DNA of 12,505 bases, taken from Candidatus Methylomirabilota bacterium (GTDB lineage: Bacteria > Methylomirabilota > Methylomirabilia > Rokubacteriales > CSP1-6). Of this stretch, positions 861-11,216 are shown in pieces. The notes under the pieces are model-generated. The model had not been told where the DNA came from. It ran no database searches and saw nothing but the letters and a program-made list of their open reading frames with translations. The position numbers and the translations under genes were made by a program. The stretch's first letter is position 1. Every line of letters starts with the position of its first letter. Where the stretch lies: the NCBI GenBank assembly GCA_036556905.1, contig DATBIM010000035.1:1-12505 (forward strand), given 5' to 3'.

Positions 861-1493
861 GTGGTTAGCAAGAAAGCCCGCCCGAGCCCGGCCGCGGAGC
901 GATTTGTGTTTATCGGCGGCCGCTTGTGCGTGGATTTCGCCAACACCGTCTACGCGCCCGAGAGCCCCGCCGGGGCGCTGGACGGCTTCGACGACGTCGT
1001 GGCCTTCCTGGCGGCCGCCGGCGCCGTGGAGCGCGGGGAGGCCCGGCGTCTGCGAGCGCTGGCTGGCGAGAGCCCGCGGCGGAGCGCGACCGCGTTCGCC
1101 CGAGCCCTGGTCTTGCGGGACATGCTACGCGCGCTTCTCGGGGCGCTCGCGGCCGGCCAGTCCGTGCGGCGGCAGTGGGTGGAGCTGGTGAACCAGATCC
1201 TTCGATCGGATCTCGGCTACGCGCAGCTCGTCGCTCGTGGCGGCGGCTGGTCGCTCGTCCCGGTGGCGTCACCGGAGGAGCCGCTGGCGGCGCTCGTCCC
1301 CATCGTCCGATCGGCCGCCGAGCTCATCCAGGAGGGCCCCGGCGCGCCCGTGCGGAAGTGCGCCAACCCGAAGTGCGTCCTGTACTTCTACGATGCCTCG
1401 CGCACGGGCCAGCGACGCTGGTGCGCGATGGCCGTGTGCGGGAATCGGATGAAGGTCGCCGCTCACGCGCGGCGCGAGCGGGCGCCGGACTAG
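861..1493 (+). CDS. CGNR zinc-finger protein with N-terminal ABATE domain (putative stress-responsive transcriptional regulator)
   Basis: GTG start at 861 sits behind TAGGGA. The C-terminus CANPKCVLYFYDASRTGQRRWCAMAVCGNRMKVAAHARR is the canonical zf-CGNR motif (CxxxxC...RRWC...CGNR). The N-terminal 150 aa are Ala/Leu-rich and ABATE-like. The gene is divergent from the MOSC operon. Confidence 0.8.
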   Translation: MVSKKARPSPAAERFVFIGGRLCVDFANTVYAPESPAGALDGFDDVVAFLAAAGAVERGEARRLRALAGESPRRSATAFARALVLRDMLRALLGALAAGQSVRRQWVELVNQILRSDLGYAQLVARGGGWSLVPVASPEEPLAALVPIVRSAAELIQEGPGAPVRKCANPKCVLYFYDASRTGQRRWCAMAVCGNRMKVAAHARRERAPD

Positions 1494-1497
1494 GAGA

Positions 1498-1726
1498 TCA
1501 AGGGACCAGTACCTCGACCAGTCGCGCTGCGCGATCGCGCTGTTCGGTGTCCCAGGTCACCAGCGGGAGGCGGAGTCGCGCCGCGATCGCGATAGAGATG
1601 GCATCGGCGCCACGGACACGGAGTCTCCCGGCCGGCCACGTGTCGGGCAAGCCAGTGACGGCTGGCCTCGTGATGGACGTCGTGCCGCACGAGACGACTG
1701 ACCACCACGCTCGCGTCCACGACCAT
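1498..1726 (-). pseudogene. vapC: vapC-like PIN-domain toxin remnant with an internal deletion of about 50 codons and a frameshift
   Basis: Frame A reads MVVDASVVVSRLVRHDVHHEASRHWLARHVAG, the PIN N-terminus with the first catalytic Asp. It then runs into nonsense and stops at 1490. Near 1620-1630 a different frame reads RLRVRGADAISIAIAARLRLPLVTWDTEQRDRAARLVEVLVP*, the PIN C-terminus (DAxxxAxA...PLVTxD). The span is 229 nt, which is not a multiple of 3, and the central part of the domain is missing. The start ATG overlaps the antitoxin stop as TGATG. Confidence 0.55.
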
Positions 1727-1989
1727 CAGAGCTCACGCCGGCCGTCTCGCACCGCCTTGGCCGCGGAGCGCCCCTTCGGCCAGCGGGCGCCGATTTCCCT
1801 GGCAACCTGATCGAGGGACGCCCACGCCGCCACCGTGGCGCGAGGCCGCCGGGGCTCGCGCGGTACCGGGACGAGCCGAGCGACCACGCGTCCATGATGC
1901 GTGACCTCGATTTGCTCCCCGCGCTCACGTACCCGGCGGAGCACCTGGCTCGTGTGCTCCTTCAGCTCCCGAACGCCGATGGCCGGCAT
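1726..1989 (-). CDS. Phd/YefM-family antitoxin, 87 aa
   Basis: MPAIGVRELKEHTSQVLRRVRERGEQIEVTHHGRVVARLVPV matches the Phd/YefM N-terminal fold signature. The ATG at 1989-1987 is preceded by AGGGAGG with a 5 nt spacer. The ORF track extends this to a GTG at 2022, but that upstream stretch would be the 5' UTR. Confidence 0.75.
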   Translation of the reverse strand: MPAIGVRELKEHTSQVLRRVRERGEQIEVTHHGRVVARLVPVPREPRRPRATVAAWASLDQVAREIGARWPKGRSAAKAVRDGRREL

Positions 1990-2000
1990 GGCGACCTCCC

Positions 2001-2023
2001 TGGTGACCACAAATGTGGCCACA
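2001..2023. promoter_or_regulatory. Candidate antitoxin operator: perfect 10-bp palindrome TGTGGCCACA (2014-2023) plus an adjacent degenerate copy TTGTGGTCACC, overlapping the predicted promoter and transcription start
   Basis: On the minus strand the upstream region reads TTGCCG-N18-GATACT-TGTGGCCACATTTGTGGTCACC-AGGGAGG-ATG. The palindrome sits between the -10-like hexamer and the SD, where TA antitoxins typically autorepress. Confidence 0.3.
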
Positions 2024-3186: not shown

Positions 3187-3915
3187 ATGCGACGGCGTGG
3201 CCTGCTGATCGTGGCGATCGTCCTGGCCCTGCTGCTCTCCCTCGCGCCGGGGCCCGCGTCCGCCGAGGTGGTCTTCGACCTCTACTTCGGCGGCGCCTTC
3301 ACCGCCTGGGACGACCTTTCGGCTCGATTCGACCAGACCTTTCAGATCCTGGAGGACGTCGGCTACGACGACTCCATCATCGGCGGTGGCCGGATCGCGT
3401 ACTGGTTCGATCGCCCGATCGTGGACCGTCTCACCTTCGGCATCGGGCTCGATGTCTTTCACTTCACCCCGGATATAGATTTCCAGACGGTGGACGGCGC
3501 CCAGACCTTCGGGGGGCTGACGCTCGCCGGAGAGTTCGCGGTCTTCCCGATCGATATTTCCGTCGTCGCCGTCGGCCTCGATCTGATGGTCCGCTGGCCC
3601 TTGATGCCGAGCCGGGACTTCCCCCGGGGTCGGCTGCAGCCCTACCTGACCGCCGGGCCGGCCGTGTTCTTCTCCGAGATCGAGGATACGGACAATTTCT
3701 CGCCCGGCAATCAGTCGGACAAGGACACGACCGTCGGCTTCAAGATCGGGACGGGCATGGTCTGGTACCTGGTCCCGAATCTGGCGGTGTTCGGCGAGTG
3801 GCGCTTCACGTACTTCAGCCCCGAGTGGAACGTCACCGACAACGGCGTCTCGGGAAAGCTGGAGACGGACATCAGCACCTTTTACCTGCTGGTCGGCCTC
3901 TCCCTCCGCTTCTAG
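3187..3915 (+). CDS. Outer-membrane beta-barrel protein (OmpW/OmpA-like small porin family)
   Basis: Signal peptide MRRRGLLIVAIVLALLLSLAPGPASA|EVV. The mature protein has alternating amphipathic beta-strands and ends ...FYLLVGLSLRF with a C-terminal Phe, the BAM-recognition signature. GC is about 60%, against about 73% in the flanks. Confidence 0.65.
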   Translation: MRRRGLLIVAIVLALLLSLAPGPASAEVVFDLYFGGAFTAWDDLSARFDQTFQILEDVGYDDSIIGGGRIAYWFDRPIVDRLTFGIGLDVFHFTPDIDFQTVDGAQTFGGLTLAGEFAVFPIDISVVAVGLDLMVRWPLMPSRDFPRGRLQPYLTAGPAVFFSEIEDTDNFSPGNQSDKDTTVGFKIGTGMVWYLVPNLAVFGEWRFTYFSPEWNVTDNGVSGKLETDISTFYLLVGLSLRF

Positions 3916-3927
3916 CCTGACCGGACG

Positions 3928-4875
3928 CTATTTCTTTTCTCGGGGCGTGCCGCGCAGGACGTCTGCGTCCAGGATGAAGTTCTGGCCTGAAGGCAGCATC
4001 ATGACCTGGATCTTGTCGCTCAGCTTCTGAACCATGGCGTAGCGCACGAGCTCGGGCGTGAGCGACGCCGCCAGCTTTCTGTTCGCCTCGGCCTCCTTCT
4101 CGGCCCGGAACAAGATTGCGCTGCCTTCTCCTTTGGCCCGTTCAATGGCCTGCTGGGCCTTGTGCTTTTCCCCCTCGATCTTCTGCTGCTCTTCCAGGGC
4201 GCGCTGGGTGGCGATCTGCTTGTCTTCGATGGCTTTCTTGAATTCTGGATTGAAGTCGATGTTGTCCAGCAGCAAGTCGACCACCTCGATCGAGAAGGGG
4301 GACAGTTCTTTCTCCAGTCGTTCCCGGACGGCCTTTCTGATGTTCTCCCGATTGGGGGCAATCTCGACGCTCCTGTACTTCACGGTTTCATCCTTGAAAT
4401 TCTGAATCACCCTCGATTCGACCAGGACATTGAAAAAGTTGGGGCCGACGGTCCGGTACAGCTCCTGGATGGCTTGCGGAGACACGCGGACATTGAGACT
4501 GGCGCGGACGAAGACATCCTGGCTTTCTTCGCTGAAGGCGTTGAGCTTATCGAACACGCGACGCTGCACCTGGATGTTGGCAAGCAGGACGTTGCGCCAG
4601 GGCGCCACGAACTGCAGCCCCTCGCCAATCTGGCCTTTGATGCCGCCAAATTCATAGACGACGCCGATGTGGCCGGCGGGCACCTGGTGGACGGAGGCGA
4701 ACAACGTGAGCAAGACCATGAGGACCAGGATTCCGACCCTTCCCGGTCCCAGCAAACCGGCCAGGTCGCGCACCCGGGATGGCCCGTAGTCACTGATCCC
4801 GGGCAGGTTTCGTCTGGCGGTGAACAGGAGGACCGCCACCACGGCAAGGACGATCATCGCGAGAATGTACAACAT
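3928..4875 (-). CDS. SPFH/Band-7 (prohibitin/HflC-like) membrane protein
   Basis: N-terminal transmembrane segments are followed by VPAGHIGVVYEFGGIKG...VRASLNVRV...EVVDLLLDNIDFNPEFKKAIEDKQIATQRALEEQQ, i.e. an SPFH core plus coiled-coil. A strong SD AAGGAAGGAG lies 7 nt before ATG 4875. GC is only about 59%. Confidence 0.85.
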   Translation of the reverse strand: MLYILAMIVLAVVAVLLFTARRNLPGISDYGPSRVRDLAGLLGPGRVGILVLMVLLTLFASVHQVPAGHIGVVYEFGGIKGQIGEGLQFVAPWRNVLLANIQVQRRVFDKLNAFSEESQDVFVRASLNVRVSPQAIQELYRTVGPNFFNVLVESRVIQNFKDETVKYRSVEIAPNRENIRKAVRERLEKELSPFSIEVVDLLLDNIDFNPEFKKAIEDKQIATQRALEEQQKIEGEKHKAQQAIERAKGEGSAILFRAEKEAEANRKLAASLTPELVRYAMVQKLSDKIQVMMLPSGQNFILDADVLRGTPREKK

Positions 4876-4905
4876 GGACGGCTCCTTCCTTAGCGTCGGG
4901 CCGGG

Positions 4906-6123
4906 TCAGAAGATCTCCGGGCACCAGGGCGCCCGCGCGGTGCGGAACAGCGCGTCGGCGCGCGCGATGGCGCCGGGGCGCAGCTCCTCGACCCGTAGCG
5001 CCTGCGCGAGCTGGGCCCAGGTGAAGCCGCCCAGGTACACGGAGCCGAGCGCGGTCACATCGCAGCGCAGCTCCGGCTCGCGCTCGGTTCGCTTGCTGCC
5101 GCCCTCGCCCACCTGCCAGCGGCCTTCGTTCCACGGGCAGAACTGGTCCACGAACTCGATGATCACGACCCCCGGCGCCGCGTAGGAGCGCGCCGACAGG
5201 GCGGCCTCCACATCCACCAGCCGGACCCAGAGGCCGTCCCGGAGGCTGAAGCGCAGGCGGCGCGGCTCGGCCAGCAGCAGGAGCAGGGGATGATCGAGGG
5301 GCAGCGGCCACGCCCGCAGCCGCGCCATCCAGTCGATGTCCAGCAGATACCGCCAGATCGCGCGTGTCGCCTGGGCCGAGTCGCCCATCGCCTCGACGGC
5401 TTCGATGACCCCCGTCTGCACGCCGCGATCCCACGCGGGTTGGAGCCGGTAGAGCGCGTATGCTGCGGGGCGGCCCTCGGCCTCGAGCACCGCGCACTGC
5501 AGCTCGCCCCCTCCCCGCCGCCGCCACTCGGGATCGACGAGGACACGGGTCTGCCACCACGCGGCCGTGCGCGCGAACATGCCGGGCGTCTCGGCCGCGA
5601 CGTGCTCGTAGACGGGGGCGACGAGGTGCGCGGCCTGCGCGAAGGGCACGAGCCGGGTCGCGCCGACCGGCTCGAAGCGCGCATAGTACGCGGATCGCTC
5701 GCGCGGGAGCTCGATCTCTGCCGCGAACGAGGCGATGCCGTAGCCGAAGCGGCCGTAGATCATGTCTTCGGTCGCCCACAGGTAGGCGACGGATTCGCCG
5801 CGGTCGTGGCAGGCGTCGAGCTGCGCCCGCATCATCGCGGTGAGAATGCCCCGCCGCCGATGGGTGGGCAGCACGCCGACGATGGTCACGCCGGCGGCCG
5901 CAATGCGCCCACCCGGCACGGTCAGCTCGAACGGGTAGGCGCCGGCGCCGCCCACGGCGTGGCCGTCCTCCCAGGCGGCGTGGGCGCGCTCGGCGGGCAT
6001 GAGGCGCTCGAGGCTCGACAGCTGATTCTCGTTGGGCGCCGAACGTCCGAAGTAGTGCGAGATCGGAGCCGCCGCGGCGCGCAGCTCGTCGGCCGAGGCG
6101 CAGGGCCGCACCTGCCAGGGCAT
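4906..6123 (-). CDS. Eis-like GNAT N-acetyltransferase (tandem GNAT plus C-terminal SCP2-like domain), 405 aa
   Basis: GNAT motif A is GVLPTHRRRGILTAMMRAQLD. A second GNAT-like region follows, then a C-terminal SCP2-like segment (GSVYLGGFTWAQLAQALRVEE). The length of about 400 aa is typical of the Eis family. The SD GGGAGG lies 6 nt before ATG 6123. Confidence 0.75.
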   Translation of the reverse strand: MPWQVRPCASADELRAAAAPISHYFGRSAPNENQLSSLERLMPAERAHAAWEDGHAVGGAGAYPFELTVPGGRIAAAGVTIVGVLPTHRRRGILTAMMRAQLDACHDRGESVAYLWATEDMIYGRFGYGIASFAAEIELPRERSAYYARFEPVGATRLVPFAQAAHLVAPVYEHVAAETPGMFARTAAWWQTRVLVDPEWRRRGGGELQCAVLEAEGRPAAYALYRLQPAWDRGVQTGVIEAVEAMGDSAQATRAIWRYLLDIDWMARLRAWPLPLDHPLLLLLAEPRRLRFSLRDGLWVRLVDVEAALSARSYAAPGVVIIEFVDQFCPWNEGRWQVGEGGSKRTEREPELRCDVTALGSVYLGGFTWAQLAQALRVEELRPGAIARADALFRTARAPWCPEIF

Positions 6124-6215
6124 GGCAGCCTCCCTCGAGAAGCCCGGTCATTCTAGCAAGAGATCGCCTCCCACGAGATGGCGCGGCATCGCCGGGCGAG
6201 ACCGCGGAAAGGCTT

Positions 6216-6243
6216 CTTGACAACCGACGGCGGCCGCATAGAG
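6216..6243 (+). promoter_or_regulatory. Candidate sigma70 promoter for the DUF1326-DUF2182 operon: TTGACA-N16-TAGAGT
   Basis: TTGACA lies at 6216-6221 and TAGAGT at 6238-6243, about 40 nt upstream of ATG 6286. The intervening leader contains the GGAGGTG SD. Confidence 0.35.
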
Positions 6244-6285
6244 TGGTGCGCATCAGGCCCGGTCGAACTTCAATCGGAGGTGCCT

Positions 6286-6912
6286 ATGGCGACCGCGACG
6301 AAGACTCGATGGCAGATGAGCGGACAGGGGTACGAATTCTGTAACTGCGACTTCGGTTGCGGGTGCAACTTCGGCGGGTTCCCGAACTCGAAGGATGGCA
6401 GCTGCCGCGCGCTGGTCGGCTTCACGGTGACGAAGGGGCGCTGCGGCGACACCGATCTCTCTGGCGTGAAGGGCGCCGGGATCTTCGTGTGGCCCAAGGC
6501 CATCCACGAGGGCAACGGCAAGGCCGCCTTCATCGTTGACCCCGCCACCACCGACAAGCAGGTGGAGGCGCTCGCCCAGATCTTCACTGGCCAGCTCGGC
6601 GGACTGCCGTGGGAGCTTCTGGGACCCACCTTCCAGGTCGCCGGCCTCGTGAAGGCGAAGATCAGTATCGACGGGACCGGACGCAAGAGCACGTTCCGCA
6701 TCGACGGCGTCGGCGAGGCACGCGGGGAAGCCTTGAAGAACCCGGTCACCGGCGAGGACCACATCGTCAACGTCGATCTGCCCACCGGCTTCATCTGGAA
6801 AAAGGGCGAGGCGGGCTCGGGCTCGTTCCGCGCGGCGGCCGCCGGCCTCTCCGTCGAGTCCAACAAGACGAACTGGATCTACTACAAGTATGACTGGTCG
6901 AACGCTGCCTGA
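6286..6912 (+). CDS. DUF1326-family protein with N-terminal Cys cluster CNCDFGCGCNFGG
   Basis: The start is ATG 6286, with a GGAGGTG SD 5 nt upstream. The ORF-track start at 6178 is an out-of-context extension. The CxCxxxCxC motif at residues 19-27 plus Cys at 46 and 59 is the hallmark of DUF1326. The rest of the protein is soluble and beta-rich. Confidence 0.7.
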   Translation: MATATKTRWQMSGQGYEFCNCDFGCGCNFGGFPNSKDGSCRALVGFTVTKGRCGDTDLSGVKGAGIFVWPKAIHEGNGKAAFIVDPATTDKQVEALAQIFTGQLGGLPWELLGPTFQVAGLVKAKISIDGTGRKSTFRIDGVGEARGEALKNPVTGEDHIVNVDLPTGFIWKKGEAGSGSFRAAAAGLSVESNKTNWIYYKYDWSNAA

Positions 6913-6930
6913 CGCGGCCGGCCCCGCGCG

Positions 6931-7743
6931 ATGAGCGAGGCGGCGCTCGAGTCGCTGCTCCGTCGCGACCGGCTCGTCGTGAGCGTCGCGCTGGCGGTGC
7001 TGGTCGTCGCCGCCTGGGCCTATCTCCTCTATCTCGCGTCCGCGATGGCGGACATGGCGATGCCCGATATGCCCGGGATGCCGGGCATGGCCATGGCGAT
7101 GCCCGCCATGCATCCGTGGAGCTGGGTGGAGGCGGGTGCGCTTGCCGTCATGTGGGCGGTGATGATGGTCGCCATGATGACGCCGTCGGCCGCGCCGATG
7201 ATCCTGATGTTCGCCACCATCCACCGGCGCCGTGCCGCCGAAGGGCGTGCCGCGGTGCCCACGGCGATCTTCCTCCTGGGCTATTTCGTCGTCTGGACGA
7301 TCTTCAGCGTCGTCGCGGCGCTCGCCCAGACCGGCCTCCACGCCGCCGCGCTGCTCTCGCCCGCCATGGCGGCCACGAGCCCGCTGCTCTCCGGCGGCCT
7401 GCTCATCGCCGCCGGCGTGTTCCAGTGGACGCCGCTCAAGCGCGCCTGCCTCGCCACCTGCCGCTCACCGCTGTCCTTCCTCATGACCAGCTGGCGCGAA
7501 GGCCGCGGCGGCGCCTTCGTGATGGGGATGCGCCATGGCCTCTACTGCCTCGGCTGCTGCTGGGCGCTCATGGCGCTGCTGTTCGTCGCGGGCGTGATGA
7601 ACCTCCTGTGGGTCGCCGCCATCGCGGTGACCGTCCTCGTGGAGAAGGTGGTGCCGGGTGGCGACCTCGTCGGTCGCCTCGCCGGCCTGGGGCTCGTCGC
7701 CGCCGGCGTGCTGCTTCTGGCTCGAGTGATCGTGCCCGCCTGA
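6931..7743 (+). CDS. DUF2182-family predicted metal-binding integral membrane protein with a Met-rich motif
   Basis: It has 6-7 hydrophobic transmembrane segments. Between TM1 and TM2 lies MADMAMPDMPGMPGMAMAMPAMHP, with MxM/MxxM spacing like copper-binding Mets motifs. Conserved C...C and CxxCC features are present: TPLKRACLATCRSP and LYCLGCCW. DUF2182 is a known partner of DUF1326. Confidence 0.7.
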   Translation: MSEAALESLLRRDRLVVSVALAVLVVAAWAYLLYLASAMADMAMPDMPGMPGMAMAMPAMHPWSWVEAGALAVMWAVMMVAMMTPSAAPMILMFATIHRRRAAEGRAAVPTAIFLLGYFVVWTIFSVVAALAQTGLHAAALLSPAMAATSPLLSGGLLIAAGVFQWTPLKRACLATCRSPLSFLMTSWREGRGGAFVMGMRHGLYCLGCCWALMALLFVAGVMNLLWVAAIAVTVLVEKVVPGGDLVGRLAGLGLVAAGVLLLARVIVPA

Positions 7744-7750
7744 TACCGAC

Positions 7751-8722
7751 CTACAGGCTCCTGAGGAAATCGAGCATCGCGGCAGTGACCTCCCGGGGCC
7801 GTTCCTGCTGCGTCCAGTGGCCGCACCCGGGGAGCATGATCGTCTTCCGGAGCTGGGGGACGAATGTCTTGAGGTTCGGGATGAGCTGGTCCATGCCCCG
7901 GAAGGCGACGACGAGGTCCCGGTCGCCGGCGACGTAGAGGGCGGGGACGGTCACCCGCGCCCCGGCAAAGGGCGCCAGCAGCTCCCAGCTGCGGTCGATG
8001 TTGCGGTACCAGTTGAGCCCTCCGCGGAAGCCGGTGCGCGTGAATTCCTTCGTGTAGAAGTCGAGGTCGGCCTCGGACAGCCACGCCGGCAAGGCCGAGG
8101 GCTCGACCAGGCTGCTGAGGAGGCCACCACGCCTCGGCACCAGTCCGACTCGATCGGCATCGGGAAATGCTGCGTCCCCGCGGGGCAGGTCGCCCGAGGC
8201 CGTGTACAGGAGGCAGCGCAGGGAACGACGGACGTCGCGCTCGAGCTCGGCCTCGGCCACGCCCGGCTCCTGGAAGTAGAGCTGGTAGAACAGCCCGTCG
8301 TCGGTCTGGGGCATGACGGTGGTCGGACGGACCCGGCCGCGCGGCCGGAACGGGACGCTGAGAGCGATGACTGCGCGCACGCGGTCGGGACGGAGCAGTG
8401 CGGCGTGCCAGGCCACCGGGGCGCCCCAGTCGTGGCCGACGATCACGGCCGATTCAGCGCCCAGCGCCTCGATCAGGCCGACGATGTCGCCGACGACGTG
8501 CAGCAGCGTGTACTGCTCGATCGCCTGCGGCTGATCGGTCTGGCCGTAGCCGCGCATGTCGGGCGCGACGGCATGGAAGCCCGCCGCGGCGAGCGCGGGC
8601 ACCTGGTGCCGCCAGGAGTACCAGGACTCCGGGAACCCATGGCAGAGGATCACCGCCGGGCCCTCCCCCTGCTCGGCGATGTGCATGCGGATACCGTTCG
8701 CCTCGACGAAGCGATGGATCAT
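7751..8722 (-). CDS. Alpha/beta-hydrolase, epoxide hydrolase-like, 323 aa
   Basis: MIHRFVEANGIRMHIAEQGEGPAVILCHGFPESWYSWRHQ carries the HGFP oxyanion motif. VIVGHDWGAPVAW supplies the Asp nucleophile, NWYRN a cap Tyr, and GCGHWTQQERP the catalytic His. The 773-aa ORF in the track is an upstream frame extension across the neighbouring gene. The real ATG at 8722 overlaps the S41 stop as ATGA. Confidence 0.85.
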   Translation of the reverse strand: MIHRFVEANGIRMHIAEQGEGPAVILCHGFPESWYSWRHQVPALAAAGFHAVAPDMRGYGQTDQPQAIEQYTLLHVVGDIVGLIEALGAESAVIVGHDWGAPVAWHAALLRPDRVRAVIALSVPFRPRGRVRPTTVMPQTDDGLFYQLYFQEPGVAEAELERDVRRSLRCLLYTASGDLPRGDAAFPDADRVGLVPRRGGLLSSLVEPSALPAWLSEADLDFYTKEFTRTGFRGGLNWYRNIDRSWELLAPFAGARVTVPALYVAGDRDLVVAFRGMDQLIPNLKTFVPQLRKTIMLPGCGHWTQQERPREVTAAMLDFLRSL

Positions 8723-10125
8723 CGCGACGGCCTGGCCCCCACCACGTCGAGGGCCCGGCGGAGCTGGGGATCCCGCGCGGGGTCCCAGAGCCACCGGTCT
8801 TCGTCGACGCTGCGGGCGACCTCTACGTCCGGAGTGAGCCCGCGCCGATCGATGGAGCGGCCCGCGGGCGTGAACCAGTGGGCCGTCGTCAGCCTGAGCC
8901 CGGCGCCGTTGGTGAGCGGGATGATGCTCTGGATCGACGCGCGCCCTTGCGTGGTCGTCCCGACGAGCCGGGCGCGCTGCCACTCCTGGAGCGCGCTGGC
9001 CACGATCTCCGCGCCCGCCGCCGTGCCCTCGTCCACCAGGACCACGAGCGGCGCGTCGAGGCTCGGACGCTTGGCGTGGGCGGGGAACCGCACGCTCTGT
9101 TGCGGCGTCCGTCCCTCGGTATAGGTCACCAGCCTCCCCGCGGGCAGAAACAGCTCGGCCACGCCGATCGCCGCCGTCACGGGCCCACCGCTGTTGACCC
9201 GGAGATCGAGCACGAGCGCCCGCGCCCCCGCCGCGCCCAGCGTGTCCAGCGCGGTCTGGACTTCCGGGGGCGTCGAATCCTGGAGCCGACGGATCCGGAT
9301 GTAGCCGACGCCCGGACGAACCACCTTCGACTCCACGCTGCGGGCCCGGCTCGCCTCCCTGACGACGGAGATCTCTCGAGGCTGGGCCCACTCTCGCCGG
9401 GCGACGGTCAGCGCCGCGGCGCTGCCCGGTCTCCCCCAGAACAGGTCGACGGCATCGGTGAGCTTCATGCGCTCGGTCGATACCCCGTCGATCCGCAGAA
9501 TCCGATCGCCCGCGCGAAGCCCGGCGCGGGCTCCCGGGCCGCCCTCGATCGGGGCGACGACCGTCAGGGCCCGGTCGCGCAGCGTGACGTCGAGGCCGAC
9601 CCCGGCCGGTGGGGCGTTCTTGAGCGTCGCGTACCGCGTCGGATCGAGGTAGGCGCCGTTGTCGTCGAGGGCCATGAGGCCCCGGAGCATGGTGGCATTG
9701 AGGTCGTCGACGCTCGTGCCCAGCCGGGTCCGCACGAAGTCCGACGCCCGCTGGACCGCCCGGAGCATATCGGCCGCCGAGGGATCGGGTGGCCAGGACA
9801 GCACGAGCATGGACTCGGGGGACCGTGACTCGCCCTGCATGATCGTCGCGCCGTAGCCACCCTCGACGACGCGGATCGCGCGCTTGGGGGGAATCGCCTC
9901 CAGGCTGCGGAGGGCGGTCAGGCCGAGAGTCTCGACCGGAATCTCGGCCACATGCTGGGCGCGCACGACGGTGATCGCCTCGGCCACGGGCCCACTGGTC
10001 TCTCGGGGCGTCCCCCCGGGCAGGACCACGCGATCCTGATGCTGGCCACCCGTCGTGCAGGCGGCCGCCCACAGCAGGAGCCCCGCCGCGCCTCCGAGGT
10101 AGCGGACCCGTGGTCGCTTCGTCAT
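8719..10125 (-). CDS. S41 (C-terminal processing peptidase/Tsp) family lipoprotein with PDZ domain, predicted catalytically inactive
   Basis: The real start is MTKRPRVRYLGGAAGLLLWAAAC, a lipoprotein-type signal with the ATG at 10125. The PDZ domain is GVGLDV...GLRAGDRILRIDG. S41 core motifs are GYIRI, LDLRVNSGG and VLVDEG-TAAGAE-IVASALQ...TQGRASIQS. The Ser and Lys dyad positions read Ala370 and Arg395. The ATG overlaps the dinB stop as ATGA. Confidence 0.8.
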   Translation of the reverse strand: MTKRPRVRYLGGAAGLLLWAAACTTGGQHQDRVVLPGGTPRETSGPVAEAITVVRAQHVAEIPVETLGLTALRSLEAIPPKRAIRVVEGGYGATIMQGESRSPESMLVLSWPPDPSAADMLRAVQRASDFVRTRLGTSVDDLNATMLRGLMALDDNGAYLDPTRYATLKNAPPAGVGLDVTLRDRALTVVAPIEGGPGARAGLRAGDRILRIDGVSTERMKLTDAVDLFWGRPGSAAALTVARREWAQPREISVVREASRARSVESKVVRPGVGYIRIRRLQDSTPPEVQTALDTLGAAGARALVLDLRVNSGGPVTAAIGVAELFLPAGRLVTYTEGRTPQQSVRFPAHAKRPSLDAPLVVLVDEGTAAGAEIVASALQEWQRARLVGTTTQGRASIQSIIPLTNGAGLRLTTAHWFTPAGRSIDRRGLTPDVEVARSVDEDRWLWDPARDPQLRRALDVVGARPSR

Positions 10126-11216
10126 GACGTCGGCTCCGCCGCCCGCACGAGCTTCTCCGCGCGCACGCCGATCAGCCGGATCTTGCGCTGGCGGGGGTTC
10201 TCGCGGTGATCCAGGAAGGGCAGGAGCAGGCGGACGGCCCCGGTGTAGAGGGCGTTCTCGGTGGTGAGCGGTTCCCGGGGCGTGTGCGAGCGGGTGAAGG
10301 TCATGAAGTTCTCGAAGCGCACGGTCACGGTGACGGTGCGGAAGGCCGAGAAGCCGTGGCCGCCCAGGCGCACGAAGACGCTGCGGGCCAGCTCGCGCGC
10401 GCGCTCCAGCACGAACGCCGCCTCCAGGGTGTCGCGCTCGAACGTCTCCTGCTCGCCGACGCTCTTGGGCTCCCACTCGTTGGACACCGGGCTGTCCGAA
10501 TTGCCGCGGGCCTTGGCGTAGAGATCTTCCCCCCAGCGGCCGAACCAGTCGACGAGCTGGAGGAGCTCGAGGTCACGGAGCTGGCGGACGGTGCGAATCC
10601 CGCGCTCGTGGAGCAGGGCCTCGGACTTGGGCCCGATGCCGGGGATGACCCGGATCCGGAGCGGATCGAGGAAGGCCTGGACCTCGTCCGGGCGCACCAC
10701 GGTCAGGCCATCCGGCTTCTTGAAGTCGGAGGCGATCTTGGCCACGAGCTTGTTGGGGCCCAGCCCCACGGTGCAGGTGAGCCCCTCCTGCGCGACGATC
10801 TCACGCTTGATGGCCAGCGCGCGCTCGGCGGCGGCCTCGAAGGTGGCCAGCGTCGAGAGGTCCAGGTAGGCCTCGTCGATACTGGCCTCCTCGAAGAGAT
10901 CGGCGCGCTGGGCCAGCAGGGCCATGATGCGCTGGGAGACCTCACCGTAGAGCTTGTGGTTGCCCTCGATGAAGACCGTGGCGGGCTCGCCCCGGCGCTG
11001 GGCAGCCTGGGCCAGCCGCCAGGCCCGGGTGATCGGCAGGGCAGACCGGATGCCGTACTTGCGGGCCGCGTAGTTCGCGGCGGTCACCACGCCTCGGCCC
11101 TGCCCGTCCTTGGGGTCGGCGCCCACGACCACCGGCCGGCCCCGGAGCTGTGGGTTGTAGCGCTCCTCGACGGCGGCGTAGAAGGCGTCCATGTCCACGT
11201 GCGCGATGATCCGCAC
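10122..11216 (-). CDS. dinB: DNA polymerase IV (Y-family translesion polymerase)
   Basis: GTG start at 11216. The sequence VRIIAHVDMDAFYAAVE...EASIDEAYLDL...PGIGPKSEALLHERGIRTVRQL is canonical DinB/UmuC. It is 364 aa, and the TGA stop overlaps the next gene's ATG. Confidence 0.9.
   Translation of the reverse strand: MRIIAHVDMDAFYAAVEERYNPQLRGRPVVVGADPKDGQGRGVVTAANYAARKYGIRSALPITRAWRLAQAAQRRGEPATVFIEGNHKLYGEVSQRIMALLAQRADLFEEASIDEAYLDLSTLATFEAAAERALAIKREIVAQEGLTCTVGLGPNKLVAKIASDFKKPDGLTVVRPDEVQAFLDPLRIRVIPGIGPKSEALLHERGIRTVRQLRDLELLQLVDWFGRWGEDLYAKARGNSDSPVSNEWEPKSVGEQETFERDTLEAAFVLERARELARSVFVRLGGHGFSAFRTVTVTVRFENFMTFTRSHTPREPLTTENALYTGAVRLLLPFLDHRENPRQRKIRLIGVRAEKLVRAAEPTS

What the first reader, a model, noticed from the sequence alone, without database searches (positions are those of the whole stretch)
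6286..7743. DUF1326 and DUF2182 pair with a Cys cluster and a copper-type Met-rich motif: candidate uncharacterised metal-handling module
DUF1326 carries CNCDFGCGCNFGG (CxCxxxCxC) at residues 19-27. The partner 7-TM DUF2182 protein carries a Mets-motif insertion MADMAMPDMPGMPGMAMAMPAMHP in its first loop, at 7045-7116, plus conserved Cys pairs (ACLATC, CLGCCW). MxM/MxxM clusters are the Cu(I)-binding signature of Ctr, CopB, PcoC and CusF-type proteins. The two genes lie 18 nt apart behind a good TTGACA-N16-TAGAGT promoter, and both families remain functionally undescribed. The MPGMPGM codons also form an 18/20 nt palindrome (7069-7088) in the mRNA.
Basis: partly seen in the sequence, partly recalled or inferred. 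Interest (0 to 1): 0.6.

Follow-up and report, generated by a model that had tools for sequence, protein, structure and literature searches.

The report
Two-gene copper-handling membrane module
This is an intact copy of a widespread bacterial gene pair: a seven-helix membrane protein of the PpoB2 "copper chaperone" family and a soluble protein with five invariant cysteines; it most likely passes copper across the inner membrane, and it is an ordinary member of a pair already described in the literature.

Summary
Both genes are clear Pfam members: PF07040 (DUF1326) and PF09948. The claim that both families are undescribed is out of date. PF09948 is now named "PpoB2, copper chaperone" after a Marinomonas protein needed to load copper into tyrosinase. 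The same pair was named DmdE/DmdF in Roseobacters in 2026.

The finding passes its own refutation test.
- Five DUF1326 cysteines (C19, C21, C25, C27, C40) are invariant in 73 sequences from more than ten phyla.
- C173, C177, C206, C209 and C210 of the membrane protein are conserved in at least 98% of family members, and H202 in 90%.
- A methionine ladder in TM2 is also conserved.
- The TM1-TM2 loop is methionine-rich across the family (median 4 Met in 23 residues), although its sequence is not conserved.

Charge distribution places that loop in the periplasm and the Cys/His sites on the cytoplasmic side. One relative carries a PCu(A)C copper-chaperone domain in exactly that loop.

DUF1326 lies next to the membrane gene in 71 of 77 assessable loci, with no third conserved partner.

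My best reading is a Cu(I) relay from periplasmic Met sites through the membrane to a cytosolic Cys5 acceptor (confidence 0.5).

The mRNA palindrome is real but is a by-product of codon choice.

The parts
6217..6244 (+). Promoter: -35 TTGACA (6217-6222), 16-nt spacer, -10 TAGAGT (6239-6244)
   Evidence: This is the only sigma-70-like site in 5900-8000, against 0.2 expected. The motif CTTGACAcGCGACGGcGGCaGAGTAGAGT is recognisable in 6 related Rokubacterial loci, with a few substitutions in the hexamers, while sequence further upstream cannot be aligned. DNA homology to relative L081 (89% identity) starts at 6216, one base before the -35.
6276..6280 (+). Shine-Dalgarno GGAGG, 5 nt before the ATG of the DUF1326 gene
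   Evidence: Read directly from the sequence. GGAGG is invariant in the relatives' alignment.
6286..6912 (+). DUF1326 gene (208 aa): a soluble, predicted cytoplasmic protein with an acetoacetate-decarboxylase-like beta fold
6340..6405 (+). Codons of the Cys5 cluster: C19-x-C21-x3-C25-x-C27 (6340-6366) plus C40 (6403-6405)
   Evidence: All five Cys are invariant in 73 of 73 DUF1326 sequences from the genome loci, and in alignments A2 and A3. C53 is not conserved; other members have F, Y or H there.
6913..6930 (+). 18-nt intergenic spacer between the two genes
   Evidence: The gap is 18-19 nt in all the Rokubacterial relatives fetched. Across phyla the estimated median gap is about 8 nt, and the two genes often overlap.
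6931..7743 (+). DUF2182/PpoB2-family gene (270 aa): a 7-TM inner-membrane protein, N-terminus inside and C-terminus outside
7045..7116 (+). Met-rich TM1-TM2 loop (residues 39-62, 9 Met in 24 aa), predicted periplasmic and flexible
   Evidence: The model shows a coil with pLDDT 57-65. Across the family the loop has a median of 4 Met in 23 aa, 75% of members have at least 3 Met, and a minority are His-rich or carry CC. Mean K+R is 0.8, against 3.1-4.3 in the inside loops. In relative P0372 a PCu(A)C domain sits at this position.
7069..7088 (+). 18/20 palindrome (hairpin) inside the Met-Pro-Gly codons; incidental
   Evidence: MFE is -28.4 kcal/mol for 7055-7105, z = -2.7. It is present only where the peptide MPGMPGM is present (window, L081, L082) and is lost in L083.
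7150..7185 (+). TM2 methionine ladder M74-W75-x2-M78-M79-x2-M82-M83-x-P85
   Evidence: Each position is 94-99% conserved in 126 sequences (the query plus 125 family representatives clustered at 50% identity), and W75 and P85 are invariant in A1. It lies in the outer half of TM2 by the topology.
7447..7461 (+). C173-x3-C177 in the cytoplasmic loop after TM4
   Evidence: C173 is conserved in 98% and C177 in 99% of members. This loop carries the highest K+R count (4.3), which places it in the cytoplasm.
7534..7560 (+). H202-x3-C206-x2-C209-C210 in the inner half of TM5
   Evidence: H202 is conserved in 90% of members and C206, C209 and C210 in 98-99%.

Best explanation
The two genes form one self-contained operon with its own conserved promoter. 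It encodes a relay for a soft, thiol-loving metal ion, most likely Cu(I).

**Proposed path (inferred).**
1. The flexible Met-rich periplasmic loop of the 7-TM protein captures Cu(I).
2. The ion moves down a stack of conserved methionines in the outer half of TM2 (M74, M78/79, M82/83, with M214 and M223 of TM5).
3. It reaches a Cys/His site on the cytoplasmic side (H202, C206, C209, C210 and C173xxxC177).
4. It is handed to the soluble cytoplasmic partner DUF1326, which holds it in a CxCx3CxC...C thiolate site.
5. DUF1326 stores it or delivers it to cytoplasmic targets.

The driving force would be the affinity gradient from thioether ligands outside to thiolate ligands inside, as in eukaryotic Ctr1 with its chaperones.

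**What is shown here:** family membership, residue conservation, the Met-outside/Cys-inside partition, the predicted topology, the gene linkage, and the fusions to copper-chaperone domains.

**What is inferred:** the identity of the metal, the direction of movement, and direct hand-off between the two proteins.
For: 1. PF09948 is the family of PpoB2. PpoB2 is required for specific copper transfer to a tyrosinase in Marinomonas (PMC2855505).
2. Ligand residues are conserved. The TM2 Met ladder, C173, C177, C206, C209 and C210 are conserved in 94-99% of 126 diverse sequences, and H202 in 90%. Five Cys of DUF1326 are invariant in 73 of 73 sequences.
3. Ligands are partitioned across the membrane (113 sequences).
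   - Mean Met counts are 4.1 and 1.3 in the two outside loops, against 0.1-0.5 in the inside loops.
   - All conserved Cys lie in the inside loop or the inner half of TM5.
   - K+R counts run 3.2 / 0.8 / 3.1 / 0.7 / 4.3 / 0 / 2.5 / 0.1 along the chain.
4. Domain fusions among family representatives.
   - P0372 has a PCu(A)C domain (PF04314, E = 4.6e-28) inserted exactly in the TM1-TM2 loop.
   - P0309 has a C-terminal YtkA-like domain (E = 1.5e-13). The same domain follows the CopD membrane part of the copper importer YcnJ (PMC13344008).
   - P0344 has a C-terminal AhpC/TSA-Redoxin domain.
5. Linkage: DUF1326 is adjacent in 71 of 77 assessable loci across more than ten phyla, and immediately upstream on the same strand in 67. 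No third gene is conserved.
6. DUF1326 has no signal peptide or TM segment.
7. CxC-type motifs are typical of Cu(I)-thiolate clusters, for example CopY CxCx4CxC and Mac1/Ace1. This point rests on my own knowledge.
Against: - No metal-binding or transport data exist for this pair or for any DUF1326 protein.
- Purified DmdF (a DUF1326 protein) was reported as a peroxidase, and copper was not considered (PMC12992908).
- No copper enzyme, regulator or exporter lies in the window.
- Among 147 immediate neighbours in other genomes, no family recurs more than 4 times. Only one neighbour seen was a heavy-metal P-type ATPase (L075).
- The informative fusions are rare: 3 with a Pfam hit among 150 representatives.
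- A Cys5 site could instead bind Zn or an Fe-S cluster.
- The direction of transport cannot be read from sequence.
The spatial clustering of the ligands is therefore inferred from topology, not measured.
Confidence: 0.5

Rival explanations
1. The pair protects against oxidative stress, as proposed for DmdEF. DUF1326 is a peroxidase or catalase-like enzyme that removes H2O2, and the membrane protein has an accessory role that is not yet known.
For: - Purified DmdF consumed H2O2 and released O2, and a dmdF mutant had higher ROS on DMSP (PMC12992908).
- A DinB/DinB_2 gene lies directly upstream of the pair in a close relative (L081), as in the Roseobacter operon.
- An AhpC/TSA domain is fused to one family member, and AhpC/TSA genes lie downstream in L089.
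Against: - The O2-release test used 1.76 M H2O2 and 10 mg/ml protein. Any protein carrying a redox-active metal could score under those conditions.
- This reading does not explain the conserved Met ladder, the periplasmic Met loop or the PCu(A)C and YtkA fusions of the obligate partner.
- The DUF1326 fold is ADC-like, not a known peroxidase fold.
- The DMSP phenotype fits copper supply equally well, because methanethiol oxidase in that pathway is copper-dependent (PMC5739008). That link is my inference.
Confidence: 0.15
2. The pair handles a soft metal but in a different way: it exports or detoxifies the metal, or its substrate is another thiophilic ion (Hg(II), Ag(I), Cd(II), Zn(II)). This would resemble the MerP-MerT-MerA cysteine relay.
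For: - The arrangement of a Cys pair within a TM helix plus a cytoplasmic Cys pair recalls MerT/MerF (my own knowledge).
- One locus has an adjacent heavy-metal P-type ATPase with YHS and HMBD domains (L075).
- In C. necator pHG1 a 75-aa protein with 14 Cys (GDCCVxC family) follows the pair.
- The pair is common on plasmids and megaplasmids: 210 records.
Against: - There is no mer, czc or cad context in the window. No family recurred among the 147 immediate neighbours in other genomes.
- There is no energy-coupling domain for export.
- A Met-rich periplasmic loop and fusions to PCu(A)C and YtkA point to Cu(I) specifically.
- The PpoB2 genetics indicate supply of copper, not removal.
Confidence: 0.15
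3. The membrane protein is a transmembrane thiol-disulfide or electron relay, like CcdA/DsbD. DUF1326 would be a cytoplasmic redox partner, possibly carrying an Fe-S cluster, that feeds reducing power to periplasmic targets.
For: - Five conserved Cys lie in or near the membrane and five in the soluble partner.
- One family member has a C-terminal thioredoxin-fold (Redoxin) domain predicted to lie outside the cell.
Against: - All conserved Cys of the membrane protein sit on the cytoplasmic side. None sits on the periplasmic side to complete a relay.
- No internal repeat of the CcdA type was detected (hhalign probability below 1%).
- CxC spacing is poor geometry for a cubane Fe-S cluster (my own knowledge).
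- This reading does not explain the Met ladder or the Met loop.
Confidence: 0.1
4. The membrane protein is a dedicated tyrosinase-loading chaperone, the strict functional equivalent of Marinomonas PpoB2.
For: It belongs to the same Pfam family with a full-length match.
Against: - No tyrosinase gene lies in the window.
- No tyrosinase is next to the six DUF2182 genes that lack a DUF1326 partner.
- No neighbour family recurs across 80 loci.
- The usual partner is DUF1326, not a tyrosinase.
Confidence: 0.03

Closest known systems
PpoB2 of Marinomonas mediterranea (founding member of Pfam PF09948, COG5486)
   Same: The window protein belongs to the same Pfam family, with a full-length match (187 of 188 model positions, 228.7 bits). 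PpoB2 is a polytopic membrane protein with genetic evidence for specific copper delivery to a cuproenzyme (PMC2855505).
   Different: PpoB2 is encoded in an operon with the tyrosinase PpoB1. Here the operon partner is DUF1326 and no tyrosinase is present. Whether PpoB2 also has a DUF1326 partner could not be checked.
DmdE/DmdF of Ruegeria lacuscaerulensis (EMBO J 2026, PMC12992908)
   Same: It is the same two families, reported as always adjacent. Both genes are needed for one phenotype. A DinB-family gene is associated, as also seen in relative L081.
   Different: The gene order is reversed there (DUF2182 first). That order occurred in only 1 of 81 genes in my sample (L003). The Roseobacter pair is regulated by DmdR and linked to dmdA and acuI; none of these is in the window. 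The authors describe non-Roseobacter pairs as phylogenetically distinct. Their proposed function (peroxidase) differs from the copper-relay reading given here.
Ctr1 copper transporters with cytosolic chaperones (eukaryotes)
   Same: The logic is the same: extracellular Met-rich motifs, MxxxM-type methionines inside a TM helix, Cys/His at the cytosolic exit, and hand-off to a cytosolic thiolate protein without ATP.
Bacterial copper importers CopD/YcnJ and CcoA
   Same: These are inner-membrane proteins that bring copper in for cuproenzyme assembly. YcnJ carries a C-terminal extracellular YtkA domain, as does DUF2182 family member P0309. CcoA uses Met and His motifs in TM helices (my own knowledge).
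   Different: They are unrelated families. CopD is PF05425 and CcoA is an MFS protein; neither was matched. Neither has a dedicated Cys5 cytosolic partner.
MerP-MerT-MerA mercury relay
   Same: A thiophilic metal is passed from a periplasmic site to Cys residues in a TM helix, then to a cytoplasmic Cys pair, then to a soluble cytoplasmic Cys-bearing protein.
   Different: There is no homology and no mer genes nearby. The periplasmic ligands here are Met rather than Cys.
Acetoacetate decarboxylase-like superfamily (ADC, MppR)
   Different: Sequence identity is 7-13%. No lysine is among the invariant or nearly invariant DUF1326 residues, so a Schiff-base catalytic Lys is not conserved. The N-terminal Cys5 cluster is a defining feature of DUF1326; whether ADC-like proteins carry anything similar was not checked.

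Membership tests
Pfam PF09948 (PpoB2 / DUF2182, COG5486) | Score above the curated Pfam gathering threshold over the full model | tested here: met
   228.7 bits against a cut-off of 28.7, E = 7.1e-68, model positions 2-187 of 188.
Pfam PF09948 (PpoB2 / DUF2182, COG5486) | Family-invariant residues: MWxxMMxxMMxP, CxxxC, HGxxCxGCC, M214, E238-K239 | tested here: met
   The window protein has the majority residue at all of these 90-100% conserved positions.
Pfam PF09948 (PpoB2 / DUF2182, COG5486) | Function of the founding member: copper delivery to a co-encoded tyrosinase | tested here: not met
   There is no tyrosinase in the window and none next to partner-less family members. Copper delivery itself cannot be tested with these tools.
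Pfam PF07040 (DUF1326) | Score above the curated Pfam gathering threshold | tested here: met
   142.8 bits against a cut-off of 25, E = 1.7e-41, model positions 2-175 of 177.
Pfam PF07040 (DUF1326) | Invariant CxCx3CxC...C cluster, G51 and Q92 | tested here: met
   C19, C21, C25, C27, C40, G51 and Q92 are all present in the window protein and invariant in 73-78 diverse sequences.
DmdEF-type pair (DUF2182 + DUF1326 operon) | The two genes are adjacent on the same strand | tested here: met
   The gap is 18 nt, on the same strand, behind one promoter. The same arrangement holds in 67 of 81 family genes.
DmdEF-type pair (DUF2182 + DUF1326 operon) | Linkage to dmdR, dmdA or acuI (DMSP or acrylate catabolism) | tested here: not met
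   The window neighbours are a GNAT/Eis-like protein, SPFH, an alpha/beta hydrolase, an S41 peptidase, Pol IV and others. None is a DMSP gene. The paper itself says non-Roseobacter pairs lack this linkage.
DmdEF-type pair (DUF2182 + DUF1326 operon) | Peroxidase activity of the DUF1326 protein | not testable with these tools
   This needs a biochemical assay. The only report is PMC12992908.
Ctr copper transporter family (PF04145) | Sequence membership; three TM helices forming a trimeric pore | tested here: not met
   Pfam returned only PF09948 at E <= 0.01. The protein has 7 TM helices and no PDB fold relative. It resembles Ctr only in the arrangement of its ligands.
CcdA/DsbD thiol-disulfide transporters | Fold similarity, an internal inverted repeat, and a Cys in each half | tested here: not met
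Acetoacetate decarboxylase-like superfamily | Beta-cone fold | tested here: met
Acetoacetate decarboxylase-like superfamily | Conserved catalytic (Schiff-base) lysine | tested here: not met
   No Lys is among the invariant or nearly invariant DUF1326 columns.

The most novel reading that the evidence does not exclude
DUF2182 plus DUF1326 is a widespread, so far unrecognised two-protein Cu(I) uptake relay. It would be the bacterial functional counterpart of Ctr1 plus a metallochaperone, and it occurs in more than ten bacterial phyla. The membrane part has a fold with no solved relative. The cytosolic acceptor is an ADC-like beta protein with a Cys5 copper-thiolate site. If this is right, the 'peroxidase' DmdF and the DmdEF requirement for DMSP demethylation would be reinterpreted as copper supply, for example to the copper-dependent methanethiol oxidase. 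Many bacteria would then have a dedicated route for bringing copper into the cytoplasm.
Probability: 0.35. Interest if true: 0.65.

Novelty: new member of a known kind. Interest (0 to 1): 0.42.

Why it matters
How bacteria bring copper into the cytoplasm is still poorly understood. Only a few importers are known (CcoA, CopD/YcnJ).

This pair is very common: 7,190 clusters (50% identity) of the membrane protein have E <= 0.001 in a 1.84-billion-protein library. It is spread over many phyla and is frequent on plasmids.

Its ligand layout (Met outside, Met ladder in the membrane, Cys/His inside, obligate Cys5 soluble partner) makes a concrete and cheaply testable hypothesis. It also offers another reading of a 2026 result on marine sulfur cycling.

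The window's own copy adds nothing beyond being a typical, intact member in a Rokubacterium.

Tried and rejected
- **Solved structures by sequence.** I searched the PDB with both proteins and found nothing at E <= 1.
- **Internal duplication in the membrane protein.** hhalign of the two halves found none.
- **A third conserved gene.**
  - Clustering all ORFs of at least 110 aa in 80 loci showed the next cluster in only 7 loci. The three representatives I scanned, from the 7-locus and 5-locus clusters, were a histidine kinase, an ABC ATPase and an SDR.
  - A Pfam scan of 147 immediate neighbours found at most 4 sharing a family (radical SAM).
- **Tyrosinase next to partner-less DUF2182 genes.** None was found.
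- **GDCCVxC Cys-rich small protein.** It is present after the pair only in C. necator pHG1, and in none of the other loci.
- **Fusion of DUF1326 to DUF2182.** None occurs among 149 representatives.
- **Structured RNA.** Rfam at gathering thresholds found nothing in the window.
- **The palindrome as a functional element.** I rejected this because it is not kept where the peptide changes.
I used a shallower alignment instead (A3).
  - The AFDB fold libraries were unavailable.
  - The original 2007 PpoB2 paper is not held. Details such as 'six TM helices' and 'His/Met motifs' are therefore my recollection only.
Full report
**1. Observation**

- The DUF1326 gene is 6286-6912 (+, 208 aa). CxCxxxCxC lies at residues 19-27.
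- The second gene is 6931-7743 (+, 270 aa), 18 nt downstream.
- Its residues 39-62 (nt 7045-7116) read MADMAMPDMPGMPGMAMAMPAMHP, with 9 Met in 24 residues. That gives P = 3.7e-6 against the Met content of the rest of the protein, or about 9e-4 after correcting for all windows.
- ACLATC and CLGCCW are present.
- TTGACA-N16-TAGAGT at 6217-6244 is the only sigma-70-like site in 5900-8000, against 0.2 expected from shuffles.
- A GGAGG lies 5 nt before the ATG at 6286.
- The 18/20 palindrome at 7069-7088 is real and forms a 9-bp hairpin (z = -2.7).
- Pfam confirms both memberships: PF07040 at 1.7e-41 and PF09948 at 7.1e-68. NCBIfam has no model for either.
- The nearest homologues of both proteins are from Candidatus Rokuibacteriota / Methylomirabilota soil metagenomes.

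**2. What is already known**

The statement that both families are undescribed is out of date.
- Pfam now calls PF09948 "PpoB2, copper chaperone".
- PpoB2 of Marinomonas mediterranea is encoded with the tyrosinase PpoB1. [quoted passage not shown] It was the first COG5486 protein given a role (PMC2855505).
- A 2026 paper named the DUF2182/DUF1326 pair DmdE/DmdF in Roseobacters.
  - The genes are 'always adjacent' and often lie with a dinB-like gene.
  - Both are required for growth on DMSP.
  - DmdE is not a DMSP transporter.
  - Purified DmdF consumed H2O2.
  - The pair also occurs in other phyla without DMSP genes.
  - Copper was not considered (PMC12992908).

**3. Family survey of the membrane protein**

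An exhaustive HMMER search found 7,190 clusters (50% identity) at E <= 0.001.
- In 126 full-length sequences (the query plus 125 representatives), the conserved positions (90-100%) are M74, W75, M78, M79, M82, M83, P85, C173, C177, H202, C206, C209, C210, M214, M223, E238 and K239.
- The TM1-TM2 loop cannot be aligned, but its composition is conserved.
  - Median length is 23 residues with a median of 4 Met.
  - 75% of members have at least 3 Met and 37% have at least 5.
  - A minority carry His clusters or a CC pair instead.
- Within Rokubacteria the loop keeps its Met-rich character but varies by insertion or deletion of short Met-Pro-Gly/Thr-type units.
- The loop is therefore neither a lineage-specific insert nor a conserved motif. 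It is a selected composition, and the window's copy sits at the rich end.

**4. Topology**

- AlphaFold2 with 113 sequences gave a confident model (pLDDT 93.4, pTM 0.88). Helices run 3-43, 65-103, 111-138, 151-164, 168-186, 191-220, 225-240 and 244-267. The Met loop is a low-confidence coil.
- Mean K+R counts across 113 members alternate along the chain:

| Segment | Mean K+R |
|---|---|
| N-terminus | 3.2 |
| Loop 1 | 0.8 |
| Loop 2 | 3.1 |
| Loop 3 | 0.7 |
| Loop 4 | 4.3 |
| TM5-TM6 turn | 0 |
| Loop 6 | 2.5 |
| C-terminus | 0.1 |

- This pattern fits seven TM helices with the N-terminus inside and the C-terminus outside.
- Under this topology the ligands are partitioned.
  - Methionines fill the two outside loops (4.1 and 1.3 per loop, against 0.1-0.5 inside) and the outer half of TM2.
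  - Every conserved cysteine, and H202, lies in the cytoplasmic loop 4 or the inner half of TM5.

**5. Domain fusions**

Among the 150 best representatives:
- P0372 carries a PCu(A)C copper-chaperone domain (PF04314, 4.6e-28) between TM1 and TM2, exactly where the window protein has its Met loop.
- P0309 carries a C-terminal YtkA-like domain (1.5e-13). YtkA/CtaK is an extracytoplasmic CuA-assembly factor, and the same domain ends the copper importer YcnJ (PMC13344008).
- P0344 carries a C-terminal AhpC/TSA-Redoxin domain.
- These fusions are rare. They independently support an outside location for loop 1 and the C-terminus, and a copper context.

**6. The partner protein**

- DUF1326 has no hydrophobic segment, so it is predicted to be cytoplasmic.
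- In 73 sequences taken from genome loci in more than ten phyla, C19, C21, C25, C27 and C40 are invariant, as are G51 and Q92. C53 is not conserved.
- No conserved lysine corresponds to the ADC catalytic residue.
- The cysteines lie at the end of strand 1, in the following turn, and at the start of strand 2. They probably form one site.

**7. Gene linkage and context**

- A pattern scan of 185,579 species genomes returned 80 loci. They come from Acidobacteriota, Rokubacteria, Actinomycetota, Chloroflexota, Pseudomonadota, Cyanobacteria, Bacteroidota, Verrucomicrobiota, Nitrospirota, Gemmatimonadota and one record titled 'uncultured archaeon'.
- The loci hold 81 DUF2182 genes.
  - 67 have DUF1326 immediately upstream on the same strand, often overlapping.
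  - 4 have it adjacent in another arrangement.
  - 4 lie at contig ends.
  - 6 lack it.
- No third gene is conserved.
- A single neighbour is a heavy-metal P-type ATPase (L075).
- The pair also occurs on 210 plasmid records, including Bacillus, Nocardioides and Cupriavidus.
- In Rokubacterial relatives the pair keeps an 18-19 nt gap, but the flanking genes differ in every lineage.
- The promoter CTTGACAcGCGACGGcGGCaGAGTAGAGT and the region around the ribosome-binding site are largely conserved in six relatives, while sequence further upstream cannot be aligned.
- DNA homology to relative L081 (89% identity) begins at 6216, one base before the -35. Promoter plus two genes therefore behave as one unit.
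- The window neighbours show no copper link: GNAT/Eis-like, SPFH, alpha/beta hydrolase, S41 peptidase, Pol IV, an OMP, an NHL-repeat protein, MOSC and a CGNR regulator.

**8. Mechanism**

The best-supported reading is a Cu(I) relay.
1. The flexible periplasmic Met loop captures the ion.
2. The ion passes along the TM2 methionine ladder.
3. It arrives at the Cys/His site on the cytoplasmic side.
4. It is transferred to the Cys5 site of DUF1326.

The thioether-to-thiolate affinity gradient would drive the movement. This is how Ctr1 and its chaperones work, but it is an analogy, not homology.

The steps shown here are conservation, ligand partition, predicted topology, gene linkage and the fusions. 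The metal, the direction and the hand-off are inferred.

The DmdEF data can be reconciled with this. DMSP demethylation yields methanethiol, and its oxidase is copper-dependent and makes H2O2 (PMC5739008). A copper-supply defect could therefore give both the growth phenotype and the ROS phenotype. That link is my inference and is untested.

The rivals are scored in the report sections: a peroxidase/stress module, export or another soft metal, a thiol-disulfide relay, and a tyrosinase-specific chaperone.

**9. The palindrome**

The hairpin arises because Met-Pro-Gly codons (ATG CCS GGS) are nearly self-complementary when repeated. It is present in L081 and L082, which share the peptide MPGMPGM. 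It is absent in L083, where the peptide differs. I see no evidence for a separate RNA function. Rfam finds nothing in the window.

**10. Verdict**

The module is not new. One family already carries a copper-chaperone name, and the pair has been described. The window holds an ordinary, intact member.

What remains open, and moderately interesting, is the biochemical role of the DUF1326 Cys5 protein and whether the pair is a general bacterial copper-uptake route.

Noticed in passing
window 3914-6215 and 7744-10139, compared with L081: The window is syntenic with relative L081 in blocks: MOSC, NHL+OMP, the DUF1326-DUF2182 pair, Pol IV and a phosphatase. Two segments are specific to the window. 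SPFH plus a GNAT/Eis-like gene (3928-6123, minus strand) sits where L081 has a DinB/DinB_2 gene directly upstream of the pair. An alpha/beta hydrolase plus an S41 peptidase (7751-10101, minus strand) sits where L081 has a toxin-antitoxin pair.
   Followed up: partly
window 6223-6238 and 6262-6285; alignment A5: The 16-nt promoter spacer (core CGACGG) and the 5' UTR just before the ribosome-binding site (consensus GAACCCGTTCACCGGAGG; the window's copy differs at several bases) are conserved among Rokubacterial relatives, although the flanks are unrelated. This could be an operator for an unknown regulator. No palindrome or known box was recognised.
   Followed up: partly
L091:5598-5825 (Cupriavidus necator H16 megaplasmid pHG1): A 75-aa protein with 14 Cys, annotated 'GDCCVxC domain-containing (seleno)protein', follows the DUF1326-DUF2182 pair directly. 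The motif was not found in any other fetched locus or in the window.
   Followed up: partly
L016, L019, L067, L069, L058: Some genomes carry two DUF1326 paralogues next to one DUF2182 gene (L016, L019, L067, L069). L058 (Verrucomicrobiae) has two complete pairs within 6 kb.
   Followed up: no
L075:5628-8294 (Burkholderiales MAG): A heavy-metal P-type ATPase with YHS and HMBD metal-binding domains lies right after the pair on the opposite strand. It is the only clearly metal-related neighbour seen.
   Followed up: no
P0340, P0345 (DUF2182 representatives): In some members the TM1-TM2 loop is expanded to 60-90 residues of repeated M-x-M / MDM / MKMDMG units, far richer than the window's loop.
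   Followed up: no
window 1490-2022 (minus strand): A Phd/YefM-type antitoxin gene (1726-2022) is followed by a short 78-aa ORF (1490-1726) that abuts it. This may be a short or truncated toxin gene. The 139-aa ORF encoded next to the Phd/YefM antitoxin in L081 has no match in the window.
   Followed up: partly
window 6253-7341 (-), 7116-7937 (+), 6178-6285 (+): Long ORFs overlap the two genes on other frames or strands, and the ORF list extends the DUF1326 ORF upstream to 6178. These are high-GC artefacts. Homologues and the conserved promoter fix the real start at 6286.
   Followed up: yes
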